Origin: Escherichia phage ECML-1
Sequence record: OL631478.1
DNA length: 64,000 nucleotides
Reading direction: 5' to 3' (one strand)
The position numbers were made by a program, and so were the translations under genes. Positions within the stretch are counted from its first letter, which is position 1. Each line of letters begins with the position of its first letter. The notes below the pieces were generated by a model, which ran no database searches, was not told where the DNA came from, and was given only the letters and a program-made list of their open reading frames with translations. Positions 27,985 through 63,556 of the stretch are shown here, one piece after another.

Positions 27985-28866
27985 ATGAAAACTGTTATTG
28001 AAGCCGTCATCACCGCACAAGAGAAATTCTTCCACACAGAAAAATTTAATATCATCCAATTCCCATCTGGAGAAATTGGTGGAAACTTCTCTGAAGATTT
28101 TGTTAAGTTTGCTGAGCGTAATGCTGGTAAGATTGATAATGTTATATTTACTGTACAGGGGTATGACAAAGATACACTGTTTGCATTAGCTTTGGCTAAG
28201 GATGCCGTTGACAGTCTTGTTCCCCAGAAATCAGCGATGAAAACCGTTGTTTTCGGGTTCTTACCAAATGCTCGATATGACCGCCACATGTTCAAAGGTG
28301 ATGCAGCAGCACTGAAAGTCTTTGCCAACCTTGTTAATGCAATGGGTTTTGATGCAGTATGTGCTCTTGACCCTCACAGTAATGTTGCAGAAAACTTATT
28401 TAAGTGTTTTCAGAGCATGAAGCAAAAAGATGTGGCAGTACACTTTGCAAGTGACCCACGCATTGATTTCTTAGTAGCCCCAGATGCAGGTGCAGCTAAG
28501 AAGACTGAAGATGCCGCTAAAGAGGTAGATAAACCATATATCACAATGTCTAAGGTGCGCAATCTTAAGACTGGAGAAATCACTGGTATGCGAATCCTTG
28601 ATGATGTTGATTTGACAGATAAAACTGTCATGATTCTTGATGATATTTGTGATGGTGGTCGAACCTTCGTAGAAGCAGCGAAACATCTTCGTGAAGCAGG
28701 TGCAAAACGTGTGGAACTCTATGTAACACATGGTATCTTCTCTAAAGGTGTTGAAAACCTTCTTGACAATGGTATTGACCATATTTACACTACAAACTCT
28801 TTAGGCGAAGCTAAAGACCGTGGCTTAACACACTATGGTCAAGTTACTGTAGCAACCATTGATTAG
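27985..28866 (+). CDS. ribose-phosphate pyrophosphokinase-like protein (Prs-like; candidate ADPR-PP synthetase of a NARP1-type pathway)
   Basis: PRTase-fold signature VMILDDICDGGRTF plus N-terminal Prs-like domain; 293 aa; two genes upstream of the NAMPT-like gene. Confidence 0.65.
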   Translation: MKTVIEAVITAQEKFFHTEKFNIIQFPSGEIGGNFSEDFVKFAERNAGKIDNVIFTVQGYDKDTLFALALAKDAVDSLVPQKSAMKTVVFGFLPNARYDRHMFKGDAAALKVFANLVNAMGFDAVCALDPHSNVAENLFKCFQSMKQKDVAVHFASDPRIDFLVAPDAGAAKKTEDAAKEVDKPYITMSKVRNLKTGEITGMRILDDVDLTDKTVMILDDICDGGRTFVEAAKHLREAGAKRVELYVTHGIFSKGVENLLDNGIDHIYTTNSLGEAKDRGLTHYGQVTVATID

Positions 28867-28874
28867 GTAACAGT

Positions 28875-29366
28875 ATGAATAAGGGTTATTTTGAAAAATA
28901 CCTAATATATGAACCAGATACAGGTTTATTAATTTGGAGAGTAACCCTTTGCAGTACCGCTATTGCTGGTAATGTGGCTGGCACAAGGTCTAAGAAGGGT
29001 TATATCCAAGTCCAGATAAATAAGAATAGGTACTATGCACATAATATTGCATGGATTATGTCTGGAGGTGAGATACCAAGTGGATATGAGATAGACCACA
29101 TAGACCTTGATAAAGCTAATAATAAGTTGGAGAACTTAAGACTTAGCACAAAGTCACAAAATCAGAGGAATAGAGGTATATACAAGAATAATAAAACTGG
29201 TGTGAAGGGTGTAAGTTTTTGTAAACAAACAGGTCTTTACAAAGCAAGAGTCACGCTTTACCATAAAGAATACTTTTGTGGAAGATTTAAAACGGTAGAA
29301 GAAGCAAAAGAAGCTGTAATTAAAAAGCGAATAGAACTTCATGGTGAGTTTGCAAGACATAACTAA
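28875..29366 (+). CDS. HNH homing endonuclease with AP2-like domain
   Basis: Paralogous to 15964..16479 (YYAHNIAWIMSGGEIPSGYEIDHIDLDKANN; TGVKGVSFCKQTGLYKARVT). Confidence 0.55.
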   Translation: MNKGYFEKYLIYEPDTGLLIWRVTLCSTAIAGNVAGTRSKKGYIQVQINKNRYYAHNIAWIMSGGEIPSGYEIDHIDLDKANNKLENLRLSTKSQNQRNRGIYKNNKTGVKGVSFCKQTGLYKARVTLYHKEYFCGRFKTVEEAKEAVIKKRIELHGEFARHN

Positions 29367-29380
29367 GAGAGAGATAAAAT

Positions 29381-31162
29381 ATGAGTAAGTCACTTTACGC
29401 AGTACCAGCAGGTCTTAATGCAGATGCTTACAAGGCATCACATATATATCAGTATCCAGATGCTACGCAATATCTTATGTTGAACCTGACACCACGTAGT
29501 GACAAATGGTTTAACAGTCCATTAGCAATTGATGGTGTAGTCGCTTTTGGTATTCAACGTTTTGTTAAAGATTACTTGATAGACCACTGGAATGCCACCT
29601 TCTTTGAACGTGACAAAAAAGAAGCAATTGACGAAATCTTAGAAGTCATGAACGGTGTTCTGGGCAAAGATGCTATTGGTCGAGAGCATTGGGAAGCACT
29701 TCACGACTTAGGTTATCTGCCAGTCGAAGTATACGCTGTAGAAGAAGGCACAGTTGTTCCTATGCGTGTCCCAATGATTGTCTTCCAGAACACTGTTTCA
29801 GGTTTCCATTGGGTAGCAGGTTATCTGGAAGATGCTTTCTCTGCTGAGATTTGGAAGGCTTGCACTATTGCAACTATTGCATTGCATTACAAACGCATCT
29901 GTAAGAAGTGGGCTGACCTTACTTGTGACAACGACTTGCATCTGCCCTATCAGTGTCATGACTTTGCTATGCGTGGTATGTCAGGCTTTACTGATGACGC
30001 ATTTAATGCTGTAGGTCACTTAACCAGCTTTAAAGGGACTGATAGCTTCCCTGCTGTATACACGGCTAAACGAATCTATGGACAGTCCTACCCAATCTCT
30101 GATATTGGTAGTTCTGTACCAGCCACTGAGCACTCTGTAATGTGTGCAAACATTGCTTGGGAAGGTGGTAATGAGTTGATTGAAGAAGAAAGACGCTTTA
30201 AAGGTGAGTTACAAACCTTCCGTCGTTTCTTAACAGAAACTTACCCAACAGGTATTGCAAGCATTGTTTCAGATACTTATAACTTCTGGAGAACTGTGTC
30301 AGAAATCTTACCAGCACTTCGTAAAGAAATTATGGAACGTGATGGCAAACTGGTAATTCGCCCTGACTCTGGAGACCCTGTACATATTGTCACAGGTTAT
30401 AAAGCAATCCACTTAGAATGTGCTAAGAAGGCTTATTACGAGCACCTAAGCAAGCTGGAAGCCAGTGACACAATGTTGAATGCTGTTCTGAACATGAAGC
30501 TTGAGAACATCAACTATGGTATTGCTGGATGGCTACTGTCAGAAGGCTACGAGATGGTTGTTGACAGAGAAGACTTTGAAGTTGCTGATACAGTGATGTT
30601 GAAAAATGCTTATATGGTTGGTTCTGCAAACGTTGTAACACGTCCTGTAGCTGAGATTGATGGAGCTATTAAGACACTGTACAACATCTTTGGGGGAACT
30701 ATTAACTCTAAAGGCTTTAAAGTACTGGATGAGCATATTGGACTTATTTATGGCGACTCTATCACGTTGGAACGTGCAAATGAAATACTGAAGCGTTTGT
30801 ATGAAATGGGTTTTGCAAGCTCTAACGTAGTGTTTGGTGTAGGTTCTTACACTTACCAGTACATGACTCGTGACACCTTTGCATTTGCTGTCAAAGCAAC
30901 CCTTGCAAGCATTGGTGGTAAAGAGATTATGCTTGCAAAAGACCCTAAAACAGATAGTGGTGTTAAGAAGTCTGCTTTTGGTGGTGTAGCACCTATGTGG
31001 GATGGTGAAAATCTGAAAGCTGTAGATGGCTATGGGTTCCAGAGCTTTGCAGATGCACTTGAACATCCAGCTTGTGCTTTACGTCTAGTCTTTAGCGACT
31101 CTGAGCAGTTCGGCTACACAACTCTTGGTGATATTCGAAATAATATTGACAAGCAGCTTTAA
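29381..31162 (+). CDS. nicotinamide phosphoribosyltransferase-like protein (NadV/NAMPT family; candidate Namat)
   Basis: 593 aa with NAMPT-family architecture (YKASHIYQYP N-terminus, conserved central and C-terminal blocks). Confidence 0.7.
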   Translation: MSKSLYAVPAGLNADAYKASHIYQYPDATQYLMLNLTPRSDKWFNSPLAIDGVVAFGIQRFVKDYLIDHWNATFFERDKKEAIDEILEVMNGVLGKDAIGREHWEALHDLGYLPVEVYAVEEGTVVPMRVPMIVFQNTVSGFHWVAGYLEDAFSAEIWKACTIATIALHYKRICKKWADLTCDNDLHLPYQCHDFAMRGMSGFTDDAFNAVGHLTSFKGTDSFPAVYTAKRIYGQSYPISDIGSSVPATEHSVMCANIAWEGGNELIEEERRFKGELQTFRRFLTETYPTGIASIVSDTYNFWRTVSEILPALRKEIMERDGKLVIRPDSGDPVHIVTGYKAIHLECAKKAYYEHLSKLEASDTMLNAVLNMKLENINYGIAGWLLSEGYEMVVDREDFEVADTVMLKNAYMVGSANVVTRPVAEIDGAIKTLYNIFGGTINSKGFKVLDEHIGLIYGDSITLERANEILKRLYEMGFASSNVVFGVGSYTYQYMTRDTFAFAVKATLASIGGKEIMLAKDPKTDSGVKKSAFGGVAPMWDGENLKAVDGYGFQSFADALEHPACALRLVFSDSEQFGYTTLGDIRNNIDKQL

Positions 31163-35393: not shown

Positions 35394-35942
35394 ATGAAGA
35401 AATTGATTCTAGGTTTGTGCTTAATGTTTACAGCACACTTATCTTATGCAGTTGACTGCCCAGAGCTATCAATTAGCCAAAAAGTGAACATGTTAAAAGC
35501 TTACCAGTATGGTGAGAATAACATGGGGAAAGGTTGGGGTATCACTCTAGCAGCTATAGCCTTACAAGAGTCAGAGTTAGGTCTGAAGGTAGAAAATAAA
35601 AAGACCCATGACTATGGTATCTTCCAGAATCACTTGAAGACTGTTGTAAAGCGTAACAAAATTAGTCCTAATGTTGCTAAAAAGAAACTCTTAAAAGATT
35701 TTGACTATGCCGCAAAAGAAACACATAAAGAGCTTGAGTTTTGGACGAAGGTACATGGTCACCCAAAGTCAAAGAAGACTTTACAAAAAGTTTTAGCATC
35801 ATATAATGCTGGGTATTCGTACAGAATCCCTAAAGCTAAGAAATACTCTCAAGATGTCTATAACAATATGAAAGTTATCGCTCAATGTGAATTTGCAACA
35901 AACATTTCTAAGGTAAATCATGAAAAAATTAAGAAAGTCTGA
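35394..35942 (+). CDS. secreted protein, possible lytic transglycosylase (SLT-like)
   Basis: Signal peptide MKKLILGLCLMFTAHLSYA; AIALQESELGL...DYGIFQ resembles the SLT catalytic motif. Confidence 0.4.
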   Translation: MKKLILGLCLMFTAHLSYAVDCPELSISQKVNMLKAYQYGENNMGKGWGITLAAIALQESELGLKVENKKTHDYGIFQNHLKTVVKRNKISPNVAKKKLLKDFDYAAKETHKELEFWTKVHGHPKSKKTLQKVLASYNAGYSYRIPKAKKYSQDVYNNMKVIAQCEFATNISKVNHEKIKKV

Positions 35943-36615
35943 TGAAGTCCTGTGCCACGCTTATGACTTGCATCCTCATGAGTTAGGTCTTGATTCCTGT
36001 GTATGGACTCCAGAACAGTGCAGAGATTTTGAAGACACTGCAAGAGAGGTTGTATGTTCACTTGAAGAGTTCCACACATCAGAACCCATTGTGAACGTTG
36101 TGGACAAAGAGACTGGACAAACTATAGGTGTAAGGCGTGATAGTTTAGTGATAGTCAATAAAGACCTTGTAGAAAAAGGTAACCTCATCTTAGCAGATAT
36201 TGATGGTGTTCTTACAAATTTTAATCACGAAGATTGCTCAACGGAATTGACTGATGGGTCATTCTCACAGTACACTAATCTTCTTGATTCTGTAAGAGCA
36301 AAACCAACATATGTTTTCAACATTATTGATGCAATTGCAAATCATGCAGCAGTTGGACTCTTGACAGCAAGAGGTGAATCTCAGAGAATACCTACTGAGA
36401 TGTTTTTAAGGCACAATATAGAGCATGATTACTTGCTTTTTATGCGTGGTTTTGGAACTAACTCTATAAGTGCAGAAAGTTTGAAAGTGAGGATGATTCA
36501 GTCTTGCATTCTTCCTTACTTTAATATAGTATGCTTTATAGAAGATACAGAGAAGAATGTTCAGAAGGTAAACAGAATCCTTCCACACATTAAAACTATG
36601 TTAGTTAAACATTGA
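35920..36615 (+). CDS. hypothetical protein
   Basis: 231 aa ORF. Confidence 0.45.
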   Translation: MKKLRKSDEVLCHAYDLHPHELGLDSCVWTPEQCRDFEDTAREVVCSLEEFHTSEPIVNVVDKETGQTIGVRRDSLVIVNKDLVEKGNLILADIDGVLTNFNHEDCSTELTDGSFSQYTNLLDSVRAKPTYVFNIIDAIANHAAVGLLTARGESQRIPTEMFLRHNIEHDYLLFMRGFGTNSISAESLKVRMIQSCILPYFNIVCFIEDTEKNVQKVNRILPHIKTMLVKH

Positions 36616-37091: not shown

Positions 37092-37103
37092 GGTTAAGAT
37101 ACA

Positions 37104-37125
37104 GGCTCCTTCGGGAGCCTTTTTC
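37104..37125 (+). terminator. intrinsic terminator
   Basis: aggctcc-ttcg-ggagcct followed by ttttt. Confidence 0.7.
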
Positions 37126-37143
37126 ATTTTAGGAGATTGTTAA

Positions 37144-38463: not shown

Positions 38464-38664
38464 ATGGCTGACTTCTGCAAAGACTGTTCTATCGAAATGT
38501 TCGGACGTGATACAGGTGACTTAAAAGGTCTTATCACTGAAGATGACTTTAAAGCTGGCTATGCAATGCCAGTAATCTGTGAAGGTTGCGGGTGTATCTG
38601 GGTAGACCACGAAGGACAACGTGTAAAACCTTCAGAAGATAAAGAATCTTGGGAGAGATGTTAA
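38464..38664 (+). CDS. small zinc-ribbon protein
   Basis: CKDC...CEGCGC motifs in 66 aa. Confidence 0.4.
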   Translation: MADFCKDCSIEMFGRDTGDLKGLITEDDFKAGYAMPVICEGCGCIWVDHEGQRVKPSEDKESWERC

Positions 38665-39444
38665 ATGGGTATTGTAAAAGTTGTAAAAGGTAACTTACTG
38701 GCTGCCTTCAAAAACACAGATATTGAGTTAATTGCTCATGGTTGCAACTGTCGTAACCTCATGGGTGCTGGAATCGCTCAAAAAATTGCTAAGATTTTCC
38801 CAAAAGCTGAAGAAGCTGACCGGAAATTCCATAAAAAGTTTGGCTACAGTGCTCATGATATCGGATACCAGATGGTTGGTGAGGTGTCACATGCTCGAAC
38901 GGAGTATGGTTACATTTTTAACCTATATACACAGTTGGATGTTGGGAAGTGTGCATCATACCGATACTTAGTGGAGTCACTAGAAAAACTCCGTAAATTT
39001 TGCTGGCTGCACAACATTCGTAAGATTGGTTTACCCATGATTGGGGCAGGTATAGGCGGTTTAGATGCACAAGCTGTGAAAAGCCTCATTAATAGTGTTA
39101 TGTATAACGTTGATGTGTACCTCTACGTCTATGATGAAGCAATGGCAAGTGTAGTTACCCCTAAGTATGCTACCTCAGCACCACAATTCTATGATGGTGT
39201 CGTGCTAAGTGACGGGAAGACTAATCAAGTTACCCTCTATCAGCTTGTTGATGGCAAGGTTGAGGTTAGTTACCCTCTGGTTAGTGAGATGGGTATGTGT
39301 AACAGTGAAATGTTCCCAGTTGACCCGTTTGGAAGATATGAAGGGGTGTTCTTTGATAACTACCCAGCAGCATACATCTACACAACAAATCAGGATGAAG
39401 TTCACTACTTGCTGTATTCTAAAAAGTTCAAATTCATAAGCTGA
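38665..39444 (+). CDS. macro-domain (ADP-ribose binding/processing) protein
   Basis: IELIAHGCNCRNLMGAGIAQKI and GLPMIGAGIGGLD resemble the two glycine-rich macro-domain motifs. Confidence 0.45.
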   Translation: MGIVKVVKGNLLAAFKNTDIELIAHGCNCRNLMGAGIAQKIAKIFPKAEEADRKFHKKFGYSAHDIGYQMVGEVSHARTEYGYIFNLYTQLDVGKCASYRYLVESLEKLRKFCWLHNIRKIGLPMIGAGIGGLDAQAVKSLINSVMYNVDVYLYVYDEAMASVVTPKYATSAPQFYDGVVLSDGKTNQVTLYQLVDGKVEVSYPLVSEMGMCNSEMFPVDPFGRYEGVFFDNYPAAYIYTTNQDEVHYLLYSKKFKFIS

Positions 39445-39477
39445 TTAGCACTTCATAGTATCTACAAATCATCTAAG

Positions 39478-39524
39478 AAGGCTGCCTAACCCATTGAAAA
39501 ATTTAAGGTAAGGCGGCCTTTTTC
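39478..39524 (+). terminator. intrinsic terminator (long-loop hairpin)
   Basis: aaggctgcct...aggcggcctt followed by tttt. Confidence 0.45.
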
Positions 39525-39527
39525 ATT

Positions 39528-39680
39528 TTCAATTTGTGCAGGTATCTGTAGGGGTCTGTACAGATATCCCAAAAAATCTCATCGCCGGATAGAAAAATCA
39601 TTTTCAAAACGTGCAGACCCCGCTCAGGTCGGGCAAGAAAAATCATTTTAGAATTGTGCAGGTAGGTTTTTATAGAGAGC
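39528..39680. repeat. three direct repeats of aaaatcatttt-N-gtgcag motif
   Basis: tcattttcaatttgtgcaggt, aaaaatcattttcaaaacgtgcagaccc and aaaaatcattttagaattgtgcaggtagg; followed by a CT-only tract ccctctccccctcttactccccctctccc (39701-39729). Confidence 0.5.
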
Positions 39681-39840
39681 CAGACCAACCCCTCTCCCCC
39701 TCTTACTCCCCCTCTCCCTAAAAGTCAAGAGAAAAATTTGTAGCGGATTGAAAAATAATTCTTGATTTGTGTTCTGTTTTGTGGTAGTCGTGTGCGCCCG
39801 TTTCATTACAGTTTTGCCAAAAATATTTTTAAAATTTTTC

Positions 39841-39869
39841 TTGACTCTTTGAGTGTGGTTATCTAATAT
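39841..39869 (+). promoter_or_regulatory. sigma70-like promoter driving the small-gene array
   Basis: TTGACT, 17 nt spacer, TAATAT. Confidence 0.55.
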
Positions 39870-39875
39870 TTGCAT

Positions 39876-39932
39876 CAACGGGGAGGGAATGACCTTCCCC
39901 ACTAAATAAAGTCCTAAACTGGAGATTCAAAA
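39876..39932 (+). promoter_or_regulatory. type-1 cassette: 5' stem-loop plus conserved leader with RBS
   Basis: ggggagg-gaatgac-cttcccc hairpin then actaaataaagtcctaaactggagattcaaaa immediately before the ATG. Confidence 0.6.
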
Positions 39933-40328: not shown

Positions 40329-40402
40329 GGGGCTTATAGTTCGATAAAGTAAGCCCCAGATAAAGAGCTTTACCACTAAATCCTAAATTGGAGAACTTAA
40401 AA
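40329..40402 (+). promoter_or_regulatory. type-2 cassette: ggggctta/taagcccc hairpin plus conserved leader
   Basis: ggggcttatagttcgataaagtaagcccc then agataaagagctttaccactaaatcctaaattggagaacttaaaa before the ATG. Confidence 0.6.
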
Positions 40403-40696
40403 ATGGCTATTATCAAAAACGTTGTAATTACCGCAAAGACTCGTGATGACGCTCGTATCATGGCTAAAAAGTTATGCGGGAAAGTGGTTGACAACGGAAA
40501 ACAATCTGCTGTAAGGTGGGGCGTGAAGGTTGATAAGCAGTTGAAGTTAAAAAATTCACCGATAAACCTTTTTACATGTGTAAACACTATCGGGAAGACA
40601 AGTGTATACACGAAAAAGGCATATATTAGACGCGTAGCATTAACATCCCCCATTCGTACAATGAGAAGTTATGCAAAGCTGAAAATTAACAAATAA
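40403..40696 (+). CDS. hypothetical small protein
   Basis: Start at ATG 40403 in the conserved leader context (ORF-track start 40388 is a TTG); ends in KINK. Confidence 0.5.
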   Translation: MAIIKNVVITAKTRDDARIMAKKLCGKVVDNGKQSAVRWGVKVDKQLKLKNSPINLFTCVNTIGKTSVYTKKAYIRRVALTSPIRTMRSYAKLKINK

Positions 40697-40707
40697 AGTA
40701 CTTTACA

Positions 40708-40781
40708 GGGGGCTTAAAAGTTGATATCTTAAGCCCCAGATAAAGAGCTTTACCACTCAATCCTAAACTGGAGATTCAAAA
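40708..40781 (+). promoter_or_regulatory. type-2 cassette
   Basis: gggggcttaaaagttgatatcttaagcccc plus conserved leader; loop differs from other copies while the stem is kept. Confidence 0.6.
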
Positions 40782-62647: not shown

Positions 62648-63382
62648 ATGAAAGAGATGACAGAACAAGGTAAGGAGATTTTTAATCTCTTAAAAACCGG
62701 TAAAGGGTTCTCTAACCCACTGATTACCGGTGCAGCAGTTCTCGGTGGAACCGTAGCTGCTTCTACATCACTTGTAAGCTCTATTAGTTCTGTAACAGAC
62801 CCTACAATGAAGGAGAAACTTGTTGCTGCTGGACTTACAACAGTCCTTCTAAACAGCTTTACAACAAGCCTTACAAGCACTACAGCAACTACTAAAACTC
62901 TGACAGACTACGGTCAAAAGTCTATTGATGAGTTTTCATCACGTATGCAGGTAGCAAAGGGGTATTCCAATGTTATGGGTGCAGCAGGAGAACAAGTTGG
63001 TTGTACACCATTCAGTGGTATCATGGGTGTTGCTACAGAGTATGGTCAAAAAGCTATTGACATGATGAACAGTACACTAGATAGTGTTAATGGTGTGTTA
63101 AGTGACTTACAAGATGCTATTGATAAGGGTCTTGATACTGTTTCTGATTTAGCTAACCAAGCTGTCAGTAAGATTAATGAAGGTATCTCAAAGATTACAG
63201 CTTATGCAGATGAAGTTGTGCAGATGATTGAAGAAGAAGCTGCCCTTATTGCAGAGTACCTTAAAACGAATATCAATGGGTTCTTAGCAGGTATCTTACC
63301 AGACTGGTTTGATGATGCTTGTAAAACTGGTGTGATTGACACTATTGCAACACCAGAAATGAAGAACGCATTACAGAAATAA
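62648..63382 (+). CDS. hypothetical protein (Ser/Thr/Ala-rich)
   Basis: Start moved to the internal Met (MKEMTEQ) because the ORF-track start lies inside tRNA-Phe; 244 aa. Confidence 0.45.
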   Translation: MKEMTEQGKEIFNLLKTGKGFSNPLITGAAVLGGTVAASTSLVSSISSVTDPTMKEKLVAAGLTTVLLNSFTTSLTSTTATTKTLTDYGQKSIDEFSSRMQVAKGYSNVMGAAGEQVGCTPFSGIMGVATEYGQKAIDMMNSTLDSVNGVLSDLQDAIDKGLDTVSDLANQAVSKINEGISKITAYADEVVQMIEEEAALIAEYLKTNINGFLAGILPDWFDDACKTGVIDTIATPEMKNALQK

Positions 63383-63384
63383 TG

Positions 63385-63476
63385 GAAGATTAACCCTAAA
63401 AGGTAAGGGAGCAGTTTGCTAAACTGCCAGTAGCTGAGAAATCGGTGTACCAGTTCAAGTCTGGTATCTTCCTCCA
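63385..63476 (+). tRNA. tRNA-Ser(GCT)
   Basis: Type II, acceptor ggaagat/atcttcc, anticodon arm gcagt-ttgctaa-actgc, long variable arm, CCA encoded. Confidence 0.6.
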
Positions 63477-63480
63477 ATTT

Positions 63481-63556
63481 GAATCCGTGACAGAAATGGC
63501 TATGTGCCTGTCTGCAAAACAGGTTTATAAGGGTTCGAGTCCCTTCGGATTCTCCA
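63481..63556 (+). tRNA. tRNA-Cys(GCA)
   Basis: Acceptor gaatccg/cggattc, anticodon arm cctgt-ctgcaaa-acagg, T-arm aaggg-ttcgagt-ccctt, CCA encoded. Confidence 0.65.

What the first reader, a model, noticed from the sequence alone, without database searches (positions are those of the whole stretch)
38665..39444. Macro-domain protein at the end of the nucleotide-metabolism block
Two glycine-rich motifs (HGCNCRNLMGAGIAQKI; MIGAGIGGLD) resemble macro-domain ADP-ribose binding loops. With the NAD+ salvage genes nearby, this could process ADP-ribose derivatives or reverse ADP-ribosylation-based defence or signalling.
Basis: inference. Interest (0 to 1): 0.5.

Follow-up and report, generated by a model that had tools for sequence, protein, structure and literature searches.

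The report
Phage macrodomain, likely anti-DarT2 enzyme
This Felix O1-like phage gene encodes a genuine macrodomain enzyme related to phage T4's anti-DarT2 factor, so it most likely strips defensive ADP-ribose marks off phage DNA; its unusual features are an extra domain of unknown fold and its wholesale swapping between closely related phages.

Summary
The ORF 38665..39444 (+, 259 aa) and both glycine-rich motifs are real. Residues 1-157 are a macrodomain: Pfam Macro scores above its gathering threshold, and the AF2 model (pLDDT 91.8) matches DarG, TARG1 and Poa1p at TM 0.82-0.85. The window is a Felixounavirus. The macrodomain is homologous to T4 Tk.4 (33% identity, E 9e-23), which a 2025 preprint showed protects T4 from DarTG2 and named AdfM. 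All 125 family members examined, T4 Tk.4 included, keep N28 and carry Gln (Q90) where DarG, TARG1 and PhiKZ AdfM have the catalytic Lys. This Asn/Gln pair matches SCO6735, a proven thymine-ADP-ribose DNA hydrolase. The best reading is an orphan anti-DarT2 ADP-ribosylglycohydrolase of the Gln type. (i) Residues 165-259 form a confident beta-rich domain with no match in PDB or BFVD, found only fused to this macrodomain. (ii) The gene is a sharply bounded allelic cassette: about 50% nucleotide identity inside, 94-100% upstream. (iii) It ends its own transcription unit, 7.5 kb and about 13 genes from the NAD salvage genes, so a metabolic link is not supported. Interest is moderate: a new variant of a known kind.

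The parts
38665..39444 (+). Complete CDS, 259 aa: macrodomain plus orphan C-terminal domain
   Evidence: ORF listing. PHROG 335 matches the full length at E 1.3e-85. AF2 model has pLDDT 91.8 and pTM 0.87.
38651..38657 (+). Shine-Dalgarno-like GGGAGAG, 7 nt before the ATG. The stop of the upstream Zn-ribbon ORF (38662-38664) abuts the start codon.
   Evidence: Read directly from the sequence.
38665..39135 (+). Macrodomain, aa 1-157 (ALC1/TARG1/DarG-like class)
   Evidence: Pfam Macro 28.9 bits, above the 22-bit cut-off. Foldseek: TaqDarG 5m31 E 8e-10 with TM 0.82, TARG1 TM 0.85, Poa1p, MtbDarG. PADLOC DarG 57.8 bits and NCBIfam DarG 56.7 bits, both on the macro part only.
38737..38778 (+). Loop 1, aa 25-38 (HGCNCRNLMGAGIA), containing the invariant N28 (codon 38746-38748)
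   Evidence: N28 is present in 125 of 125 family members. It aligns with PhiKZ AdfM N23 and the equivalent Asn of a bona fide DarG. The equivalent Asn27 is required in SCO6735 (PMC9411070).
38920..38934 (+). Invariant NLYTQ motif, aa 86-90. Q90 occupies the position of the catalytic Lys of TARG1 (K84), DarG (K80) and PhiKZ AdfM (K78).
   Evidence: HMMER alignments to TARG1. Seven-sequence alignment with PhiKZ AdfM and a validated DarG. N86, Y88 and Q90 are each 125 of 125.
39034..39066 (+). Loop 2, aa 124-134 (PMIGAGIGGLD), the diphosphate/distal-ribose loop. G131 sits where TARG1 has D125.
   Evidence: Profile alignment to TARG1 PRIGCGLDRLQ. P124 and G129 are 124 of 125, G127 is 123 of 125.
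39136..39156 (+). Inter-domain linker helix, aa 158-164
   Evidence: DSSP on the AF2 model gives helix H158-164. pLDDT falls to about 72 in the block for residues 161-170, just after the helix.
39157..39441 (+). Orphan C-terminal domain, aa 165-259: six beta-strands followed by a C-terminal helix. The only invariant residues are P173 and G178, within the xPxxFDG motif.
38700..39500 (.). Allelic cassette. Nucleotide identity to phage EC6 is about 50% here, against 94-100% immediately upstream, with a gradual recovery downstream.
   Evidence: Sliding identity in 100-nt windows. Only 12 phage records carry this allele at 95% aa identity or more; all others are below 60%.
39475..39535 (+). Intrinsic terminator closing the transcription unit: hairpin 39475-39523 followed by a U-tract
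   Evidence: RNA fold gives -23.3 kcal/mol, z -4.9, with 0 of 200 shuffles folding as well.

Best explanation
The gene encodes an orphan, phage-borne ADP-ribosylglycohydrolase of the AdfM kind (anti-DarT factor, macro). When a host DarT2 toxin ADP-ribosylates thymines in single-stranded phage DNA and blocks replication, the macrodomain (aa 1-157) binds the ADP-ribose through its two glycine-rich loops and hydrolyses the thymine-ribose bond. This restores the DNA. Catalysis would follow the SCO6735 route and not the DarG/TARG1 route. No lysine nucleophile is present. Instead Q90, held in place by N28, positions the distal ribose for attack by an activated water. The C-terminal domain (aa 165-259) is an accessory module of unknown fold. 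The most likely roles, by inference only, are targeting to ssDNA or the replisome, or binding the toxin. What is shown: macro fold, active-site residues, homology to T4 AdfM, domain architecture, cassette behaviour. What is inferred: the substrate, the anti-DarT2 role in this phage, and the role of the C-terminal domain.
For: The macro fold and ADP-ribose loops are confirmed. The only defence-system model hit is DarG (PADLOC 57.8 bits, NCBIfam 56.7 bits). The top structural hits are the DarG macrodomains and TARG1. The protein is homologous to T4 Tk.4 over the whole macrodomain (33% identity, E 9e-23). A transposon screen gave tk.4 as the single significant hit under DarTG2, and a clean knockout sensitised T4 to DarTG2; the authors named it AdfM (bioRxiv 10.1101/2025.11.20.689424). 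The query and Tk.4 share an invariant N28/D52/N86-x-Y88-T-Q90 signature, found in 125 of 125 family members. Q90 aligns with the catalytic Lys of TARG1, PhiKZ AdfM and a validated DarG. In SCO6735 the same Asn27/Gln85 pair is essential for removing DarT-made thymine ADP-ribose from DNA, and the protein protects against DarT (PMC9411070). A second phage macrodomain, PhiKZ AdfM, removes DarT2 marks from DNA (PMC13309987). The gene has no toxin partner and no conserved neighbour. Cassette-like allele exchange is what one expects of counter-defence genes.
Against: No Gln-type phage macrodomain has been assayed on ADP-ribosylated DNA. The T4 result is genetic and from a preprint. Identity to Tk.4 is only 33%. 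The N-terminal half also resembles Poa1p, an ADP-ribose-1''-phosphate phosphatase, and the H25 equivalent is conserved. The family is not specifically closer to SCO6735 than to TARG1 (E 5.8e-10 against 6.4e-16), so the Gln may be convergent. No report on Felixounavirus and DarTG2 was found. The gene lies in a unit that begins with the spanin genes, so early expression is not established. The C-terminal domain has no assigned role.
Confidence: 0.6

Rival explanations
1. A small-molecule ADP-ribose-derivative hydrolase, such as an ADP-ribose-1''-phosphate phosphatase, an O-acetyl-ADP-ribose deacetylase, or a degrader of ADP-ribose-based immune signals or toxins. It would work with the phage's PRPP synthetase and Nampt to recycle NAD+ breakdown products.
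For: Poa1p is among the sequence and structure hits (E 1.2e-08, TM 0.77). The HxCNC and PKAE..D stretches resemble Poa1p; the Poa1p sequence here is recalled from memory. Databases label the family 'phosphatase' or 'O-acetyl-ADP-ribose deacetylase'. A comparative-genomics survey argued that phage Macro domains mainly target low-molecular-weight ADP-ribose derivatives (PMC9503650). NAD salvage genes are in the same genome.
Against: The gene is 7.5 kb, about 13 genes and at least one terminator away from Nampt, in a different transcription unit. The T4 homologue has no NAD salvage neighbours, and its only demonstrated phenotype is anti-DarTG2. The database names are transferred annotations, not tests. 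Whole-gene allele swapping and an added fast-evolving domain are hard to explain for an enzyme acting on an invariant metabolite.
Confidence: 0.15
2. An eraser of ADP-ribose on protein or RNA rather than DNA. It would counter another host ADP-ribosyltransferase defence or toxin, or reset modifications made by a phage ADP-ribosyltransferase.
For: TARG1 is the best sequence match and removes protein-linked ADP-ribose. SCO6735 also acts on auto-modified PARP1, by a different mechanism (PMC9411070). The variable C-terminal domain could recognise a protein substrate.
Against: TARG1's Lys84/Asp125 dyad, needed for Glu/Asp-linked protein ADP-ribose, is replaced by Gln/Gly. No ADP-ribosyltransferase was seen among the neighbouring genes examined. 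The only tested clade member acts against a DNA-modifying toxin.
Confidence: 0.15
3. A non-catalytic ADP-ribose reader or sponge, or a stoichiometric toxin inhibitor. The macrodomain would only bind ADP-ribose or DarT, and the C-terminal domain would carry the effector function.
For: The classical catalytic Lys is absent. Catalytically dead SCO6735 Q85A still inhibits DarT by interaction (PMC9411070).
Against: Absolute conservation of N28, D52, N86, Y88 and Q90 in 125 of 125 sequences, with omega of 0.03-0.06, points to an active site and not merely a binding pocket. Most clade members, including the functional T4 AdfM, have no C-terminal domain at all.
Confidence: 0.07

Closest known systems
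T4 Tk.4 = AdfM (anti-DarT factor macro), bioRxiv 10.1101/2025.11.20.689424
   Same: Homologous across the whole macrodomain (33% identity, E 9e-23). Identical HGCNC / NLYTQ / GAGIG signature. A phage-encoded orphan with no toxin partner.
   Different: Tk.4 is 155 aa and macro-only. This protein carries an extra ~95-aa C-terminal domain. It sits in a different genomic slot, downstream of rIIB / HAD-PNKP / spanins rather than near tk/regB. This allele scores higher on the DarG model than Tk.4 does (56.7 against 30.3 bits).
PhiKZ gp104 = AdfM of chimalliviruses (PMC13309987)
   Same: A phage macrodomain of the DarG-like class. The Asn (N23 = N28) and both glycine loops are conserved. It has been shown to remove DarT2 ADP-ribose from DNA.
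   Different: PhiKZ AdfM keeps the DarG catalytic Lys (K78) where this family has Gln. It scores 137.8 bits on the DarG model against 56.7 here. Identity is only 23%. It is targeted to the phage nucleus and has no C-terminal domain.
SCO6735 of Streptomyces coelicolor (PDB 5e3b; PMC9411070)
   Same: An ALC1-like macrodomain with Gln in place of the catalytic Lys and an essential Asn positioning it. An orphan with no cognate DarT. It hydrolyses thymine-linked ADP-ribose on DNA. It is a PDB sequence hit at E 5.8e-10.
   Different: It is bacterial and single-domain, and is no closer in sequence than TARG1 or DarG. The Q90 = Gln85 equivalence here is by transitivity through TARG1 and DarG, not by a direct alignment.
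DarG2 antitoxin of DarTG2 (NCBIfam NF048014; PDB 5m31, 5m3i)
   Same: The best structural match to the macrodomain. A two-domain layout: macro followed by a C-terminal accessory domain.
   Different: The catalytic Lys is replaced by Gln. The DarG C-terminal domain, reported in the literature to bind DarT (~190 aa), is unrelated to the ~95-aa beta-rich domain here. There is no adjacent DarT. The score is 56.7 bits against a cut-off of 250.
TARG1/OARD1 (PDB 4j5r/4j5s) and yeast Poa1p (PDB 6lfq)
   Same: TARG1 is the top sequence hit (profile E 6.4e-16, TM 0.85). Poa1p shares the N-terminal HxCNC...GxGIA stretch.
   Different: The TARG1 K84/D125 dyad is Q90/G131 here. Both are eukaryotic single-domain enzymes acting on protein-linked ADP-ribose or on small molecules.

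Membership tests
Macro domain superfamily (Pfam PF01661) | Profile score at or above the curated gathering threshold | tested here: met
   28.9 bits against a cut-off of 22, aa 25-140, profile positions 2-116 of 118.
Macro domain superfamily (Pfam PF01661) | Alpha/beta/alpha macro fold | tested here: met
   AF2 pLDDT 91.8. Foldseek TM normalised to target is 0.82-0.85 for DarG and TARG1, with 239 PDB hits at E <= 1e-3.
Macro domain superfamily (Pfam PF01661) | Two glycine-rich ADP-ribose-binding loops | tested here: met
   MGAGIA (aa 33-38) and PMIGAGIGG (aa 124-132) align with the TARG1 loops and are near-invariant across 125 sequences.
Macro domain superfamily (Pfam PF01661) | Binds ADP-ribose | not testable with these tools
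   Requires ITC or co-crystallisation.
TARG1/DarG-type (Lys-dependent) ALC1-like hydrolases | Catalytic lysine (TARG1 K84, DarG K80, PhiKZ AdfM K78) | tested here: not met
   The position is Q90. It is Gln in 125 of 125 clade members.
TARG1/DarG-type (Lys-dependent) ALC1-like hydrolases | TARG1 Asp125 partner of the dyad | tested here: not met
   It aligns with G131.
DarG antitoxin (NCBIfam NF048014 equivalog) | Full-length model score of 250 bits or more, including the C-terminal (DarT-binding) domain | tested here: not met
   56.7 bits, matching only positions 2-153 of 338. A genuine DarG scores 420.8 bits.
DarG antitoxin (NCBIfam NF048014 equivalog) | Encoded next to a DarT (DUF4433) toxin gene | tested here: not met
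   The flanking ORFs have no Pfam hit and are phage-specific PHROGs. Compare the DarT-DarG operon in L010.
AdfM, T4 Tk.4 clade (phage anti-DarT2 macrodomain) | Significant homology to T4 Tk.4 across the macrodomain | tested here: met
   33% identity, E 9e-23, query aa 3-160 against Tk.4 aa 2-155.
AdfM, T4 Tk.4 clade (phage anti-DarT2 macrodomain) | Shared active-site signature (N28, D52, N86-x-Y-T-Q90) | tested here: met
   Invariant in 125 of 125 sequences, including Tk.4 and the query.
AdfM, T4 Tk.4 clade (phage anti-DarT2 macrodomain) | Protects the phage from DarTG2 | not testable with these tools
   Needs plaque assays with a knockout. Shown so far only for T4 and PhiKZ.
AdfM, T4 Tk.4 clade (phage anti-DarT2 macrodomain) | Hydrolyses thymine-linked ADP-ribose on ssDNA | not testable with these tools
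   Needs a biochemical assay. Not yet reported for any Gln-type phage member.
SCO6735-type Gln macrodomain hydrolases | Gln at the Lys position plus an Asn that positions it | tested here: met
   Q90 and N28. Equivalence to Gln85/Asn27 is by transitivity through TARG1 K84 and DarG.
SCO6735-type Gln macrodomain hydrolases | Specific sequence kinship with SCO6735/BT1257 over other ALC1-like members | tested here: not met
   Profile E-values: TARG1 6.4e-16, DarG 2.5e-12, BT1257 4.7e-10, SCO6735 5.8e-10. It works like SCO6735 but is not shown to be a member.
Poa1p-like ADP-ribose-1''-phosphate phosphatases | Sequence and structure similarity, with the His23 equivalent | tested here: inconclusive
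   E 1.2e-08 and TM 0.77. H25 is conserved in 120 of 125 sequences. Ser30 of Poa1p appears to correspond to L32, based on a Poa1p sequence recalled from memory. Phosphatase activity cannot be tested here.

The most novel reading that the evidence does not exclude
The orphan C-terminal domain is a specificity module, functionally analogous to DarG's DarT-binding domain but structurally unrelated to it. It would dock the enzyme onto a particular host DarT2 variant, or onto another ADP-ribosylating toxin or the replisome. Ounavirinae would then exchange whole macro-plus-C-terminal cassettes by recombination to match the toxin repertoire of their hosts. That would make this locus a modular, swappable counter-defence hotspot built around a new protein fold.
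Probability: 0.2. Interest if true: 0.6.

Novelty: new variant of a known kind. Interest (0 to 1): 0.4.

Why it matters
Phage macrodomains are very common, reported in about 41% of myoviruses (PMC9503650), yet only two have a demonstrated role, both against DarTG2. This locus extends the T4-type AdfM clade to Felix O1-like phages, which are used for Salmonella and E. coli typing and biocontrol. It also makes one point explicit. The two proteins currently called AdfM use different active sites: Lys in PhiKZ, and Gln in T4 and Felix O1. The Gln type parallels SCO6735. The fused orphan domain and the gene-sized allele replacement give a concrete, testable handle on how counter-defence specificity is diversified. 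For routine annotation, the label 'phosphatase' on this gene family is probably misleading.

Tried and rejected
(1) NAD-salvage operon link: rejected on gene order, distance and terminators.

(4) C-terminal domain related to PQQ/BamB beta-propellers: the profile hits in long repeat proteins cover a single hairpin motif only, so this is local pattern similarity and not homology.

(5) Stand-alone copies of the C-terminal domain: P0034 and P0037 are truncated gene calls of the same fusion.

(6) A conserved partner gene: the upstream Zn-ribbon ORF is not adjacent to the macro gene in distant relatives.

(7) Positive selection on the C-terminal domain: omega is below 1 everywhere, at 0.03-0.30 where dS is unsaturated. 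It is higher than in the macro domain, but this does not demonstrate diversifying selection. Comparisons between allele classes are saturated.

(8) Structured RNA in the downstream intergenic region: only a sub-threshold Rfam hit overlapping the terminator.

(9) The BLAST and MAFFT pairwise register with PhiKZ AdfM put K78 one residue away from Q90. The seven-sequence alignment and the TARG1 profile alignment resolve this as T89-Q90 = T77-K78.

(10) Literature searches for Felixounavirus plus macro domain or DarTG2 returned nothing. The search for 'AdfM' was swamped by unrelated strings.

Full report
**Observation**

Both quoted motifs are present, at aa 25-41 and aa 125-134. A GGGAGAG ribosome-binding site precedes the ATG. 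The stop codon of a small upstream Zn-ribbon ORF (38464-38664, phrog_2210) abuts the start codon.

**Identity of the genome**

The window is a Felix O1-like myovirus (Felixounavirus). The 2.4 kb around the gene is 98% identical to Salmonella phage BPS17L1 and pSJ21. GenBank annotators call the gene 'phosphatase', 'macro domain protein', 'high-affinity ADP-ribose binding module' or 'O-acetyl-ADP-ribose deacetylase'. All of these are transferred labels.

**The N-terminal domain is a macrodomain**

- Pfam Macro scores 28.9 bits against a gathering threshold of 22.
- By sequence, the closest solved proteins are TARG1/OARD1, the DarG macrodomains of Thermus aquaticus and M. tuberculosis, SCO6735, BT1257 and yeast Poa1p.
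- An AlphaFold2 model built on 23 homologues is confident (pLDDT 91.8, pTM 0.87).
- Foldseek against the PDB puts TaqDarG, TARG1, Poa1p and MtbDarG on top, with TM 0.77-0.85 normalised to the target.
- The only defence-related profiles hit are DarG (PADLOC 57.8 bits, NCBIfam 56.7 bits). Both match the macro part only, and the NCBIfam score is far below its 250-bit equivalog cut-off.

**Active site**

In an alignment of 125 family members (query, T4 Tk.4 and metagenomic or phage homologues), N28, D52, N86, Y88 and Q90 are each invariant.

- HMMER alignments to TARG1 place Q90 opposite the catalytic Lys84 and G131 opposite Asp125.
- A seven-sequence alignment includes PhiKZ AdfM and a bona fide DarG from a Burkholderia gladioli plasmid. 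That DarG scores 420.8 bits against a 250-bit cut-off and sits next to a DarT scoring 243.5 bits against a 150-bit cut-off.
- In that alignment Y88-T89-Q90 lines up with P-T-K, the Lys being PhiKZ K78 and the DarG catalytic Lys. N28 is invariant in all seven sequences.
- Pairwise BLAST and a large MAFFT run placed the PhiKZ Lys one residue off. The T-to-T register, supported by TARG1 and by the small alignment, is the consistent one.

So this clade lacks the lysine that defines TARG1/DarG catalysis. The literature provides an exact mechanistic precedent in SCO6735. It has Gln85 at that position, held by Asn27. Q85A abolishes activity and N27S almost abolishes it. The enzyme removes DarT-made thymine-linked ADP-ribose from DNA and protects cells from DarT (PMC9411070). 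The phage clade is not specifically closer to SCO6735 than to TARG1 or DarG. I therefore claim 'works like', not membership.

**Function**

Two phage macrodomains have been tested experimentally.

- PhiKZ gp104 (AdfM, Lys type) removes DarT2 marks from DNA (PMC13309987).
- T4 Tk.4 was the single significant hit in a transposon screen under DarTG2. Its clean deletion sensitises T4 to DarTG2, and it was also named AdfM (bioRxiv 10.1101/2025.11.20.689424).

I retrieved T4 Tk.4. It is homologous to the query macrodomain over its whole length (33% identity, E 9e-23) and carries the same HGCNC / NLYTQ / GAGIG signature. The best-supported function is therefore an orphan anti-DarT2 ADP-ribosylglycohydrolase of the Gln type. 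No paper connecting Felixounaviruses with DarTG2 or macrodomains was found.

**The metabolic reading is not supported by gene arrangement**

- PRPP synthetase (27985-28866) and Nampt (29381-31162) are confirmed by Pfam.
- Between Nampt and the macro gene lie 7.5 kb containing rIIA, rIIB, an SLT-like gene, a HAD-PNKP-like gene, the spanins and four small ORFs.
- A terminator lies at 37103-37130.
- A strong terminator (-23.3 kcal/mol, z -4.9) closes the macro gene's own unit at 39475-39535.
- T4 carries the homologue next to tk and regB, with no NAD genes in the 3.4 kb examined.

**The C-terminal domain**

Residues 165-259 are not part of the macro fold.

- Modelled alone, they give a confident structure (pLDDT 86.2) of six beta-strands and a terminal helix.
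- Foldseek against BFVD finds only the homologous protein of phage SUSP2, at E 0.012. AFDB50 was unavailable.
- A profile of the domain was searched against 1.84 billion cluster representatives. The convincing matches were clusters in which the domain is fused to this same macrodomain, plus two truncated gene calls.
- The remaining weak hits are PQQ/BamB propeller repeat proteins that share one hairpin motif.
- About 34 of 126 sequences collected (lengths 240-290 aa) carry such an extension. All those examined occupy the same syntenic slot in Ounavirinae-like genomes, in the order rIIB, HAD-PNKP, small ORFs, macro.
- No neighbouring gene is conserved with it.
- Only P173 and G178, within an xPxxFDG motif, are invariant.

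**Evolution**

- Only 12 of 256 phage records holding a full-length match (80% or more of the query) carry this allele at 95% aa identity or more. All other records are below 60%.
- Against phage EC6, nucleotide identity is 94-100% up to about 38690 and falls to about 50% from 38700 to 39500. It recovers gradually across the downstream intergenic region. This is a gene-sized cassette replacement whose left edge lies in the first ~30 nt of the ORF.
- The window allele is about equally distant (roughly 50% macro, 12-31% C-terminal) from every other two-domain lineage.
- In every allele pair the C-terminal domain is more diverged than the macro domain.
- Where dS is unsaturated, omega is 0.025-0.057 for the macro domain.
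- For the C-terminal domain, omega is 0.03 within the window allele and 0.20-0.30 in the common allele group.

The C-terminal domain is therefore constrained and functional, but less tightly than the macro domain. Positive selection is not demonstrated, and diversity at this locus is best explained by the exchange of old alleles.

**Verdict**

The finding is real, and the macrodomain call is correct but already present in database annotation. The most likely function is anti-DarT2 (AdfM-like), at about 0.6 confidence. What is new is threefold:

- the Gln-type active site, shared with T4 AdfM but distinct from PhiKZ AdfM and DarG;
- a fused orphan domain restricted to Ounavirinae-like phages;
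- cassette-like allelic replacement.

I rate it a new variant of a known kind, of moderate interest.

Noticed in passing
window 40388-40696 (indel about 40400-40780): A 102-aa ORF (phrog_5089, unknown function) is present in the window but entirely absent from phage EC6, whose flanks are 82-92% identical. This is a second presence/absence polymorphism 1 kb downstream of the macro cassette.
   Followed up: partly
window 28875-29366: An HNH_3/AP2 homing-type endonuclease (163 aa) is wedged between PRPP synthetase and Nampt. In the close relative BPS17L1 those two genes are 46 nt apart and an HNH gene lies upstream of prs. This looks like a mobile endonuclease insertion within the NAD salvage pair.
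   Followed up: partly
window 39445-39932: A 488-nt intergenic region follows the macro gene. It holds the terminator and two exact-core copies of CATTTT..A.TTGTGCAGGT at 39524 and 39644 (0.12 expected by chance), found nowhere else in the window. A degenerate third copy lies near 39598. There is also a 30-nt C/T-rich tract at about 39690-39720, a promoter-like TTGACT-17-TAATAT at 39841-39869, and a minus-strand ORF (39648-39902) that BPS17L1 annotates as hypothetical.
   Followed up: partly
window 37103-37130 and 39475-39535: The two terminator hairpins bounding the unit that runs from the spanin genes to the macro gene share the same tail, TTTTTCATTTT.
   Followed up: no
window 38665-39441 compared with L002:6665-7441 (VpaE1_ev035): Synonymous divergence within the same allele is uneven: dS is 0.43 in the macro part and 0.15 in the C-terminal part. 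This hints at a recombination breakpoint inside the gene, between the two domains.
   Followed up: no
window 38464-38664: A 66-aa ORF with two CxxC pairs (Zn-ribbon-like, phrog_2210) is translationally abutted to the macro gene. It is 98% conserved at the nucleotide level with EC6 and 68% identical to an ORF in a distant relative (L006), where it is not adjacent to the macro gene.
   Followed up: partly
window 57810-63556: A cluster of 25 tRNA genes, all on the + strand. A large tRNA gene cluster is, from my recollection, usual for Felix O1-like phages; I did not check this here.
   Followed up: no
window 35920-36615: A 231-aa protein that PHROGs call 'polynucleotide kinase' (phrog_3970). It contains a DxDGV HAD-type motif, and its homologues in distant relatives give weak HAD_PNKP Pfam hits. 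It appears to be the phosphatase part only. It is conserved about 2.5 kb upstream of the macro gene in all Ounavirinae-like contexts examined.
   Followed up: partly
L011 (CP057073.1, E. coli 'plasmid' pRHB39-C03_2, 137.6 kb): The best plasmid hit to the macrodomain (35% identity) lies in a non-mobilizable 137-kb record in which every gene in view is 'hypothetical protein'.
   Followed up: no
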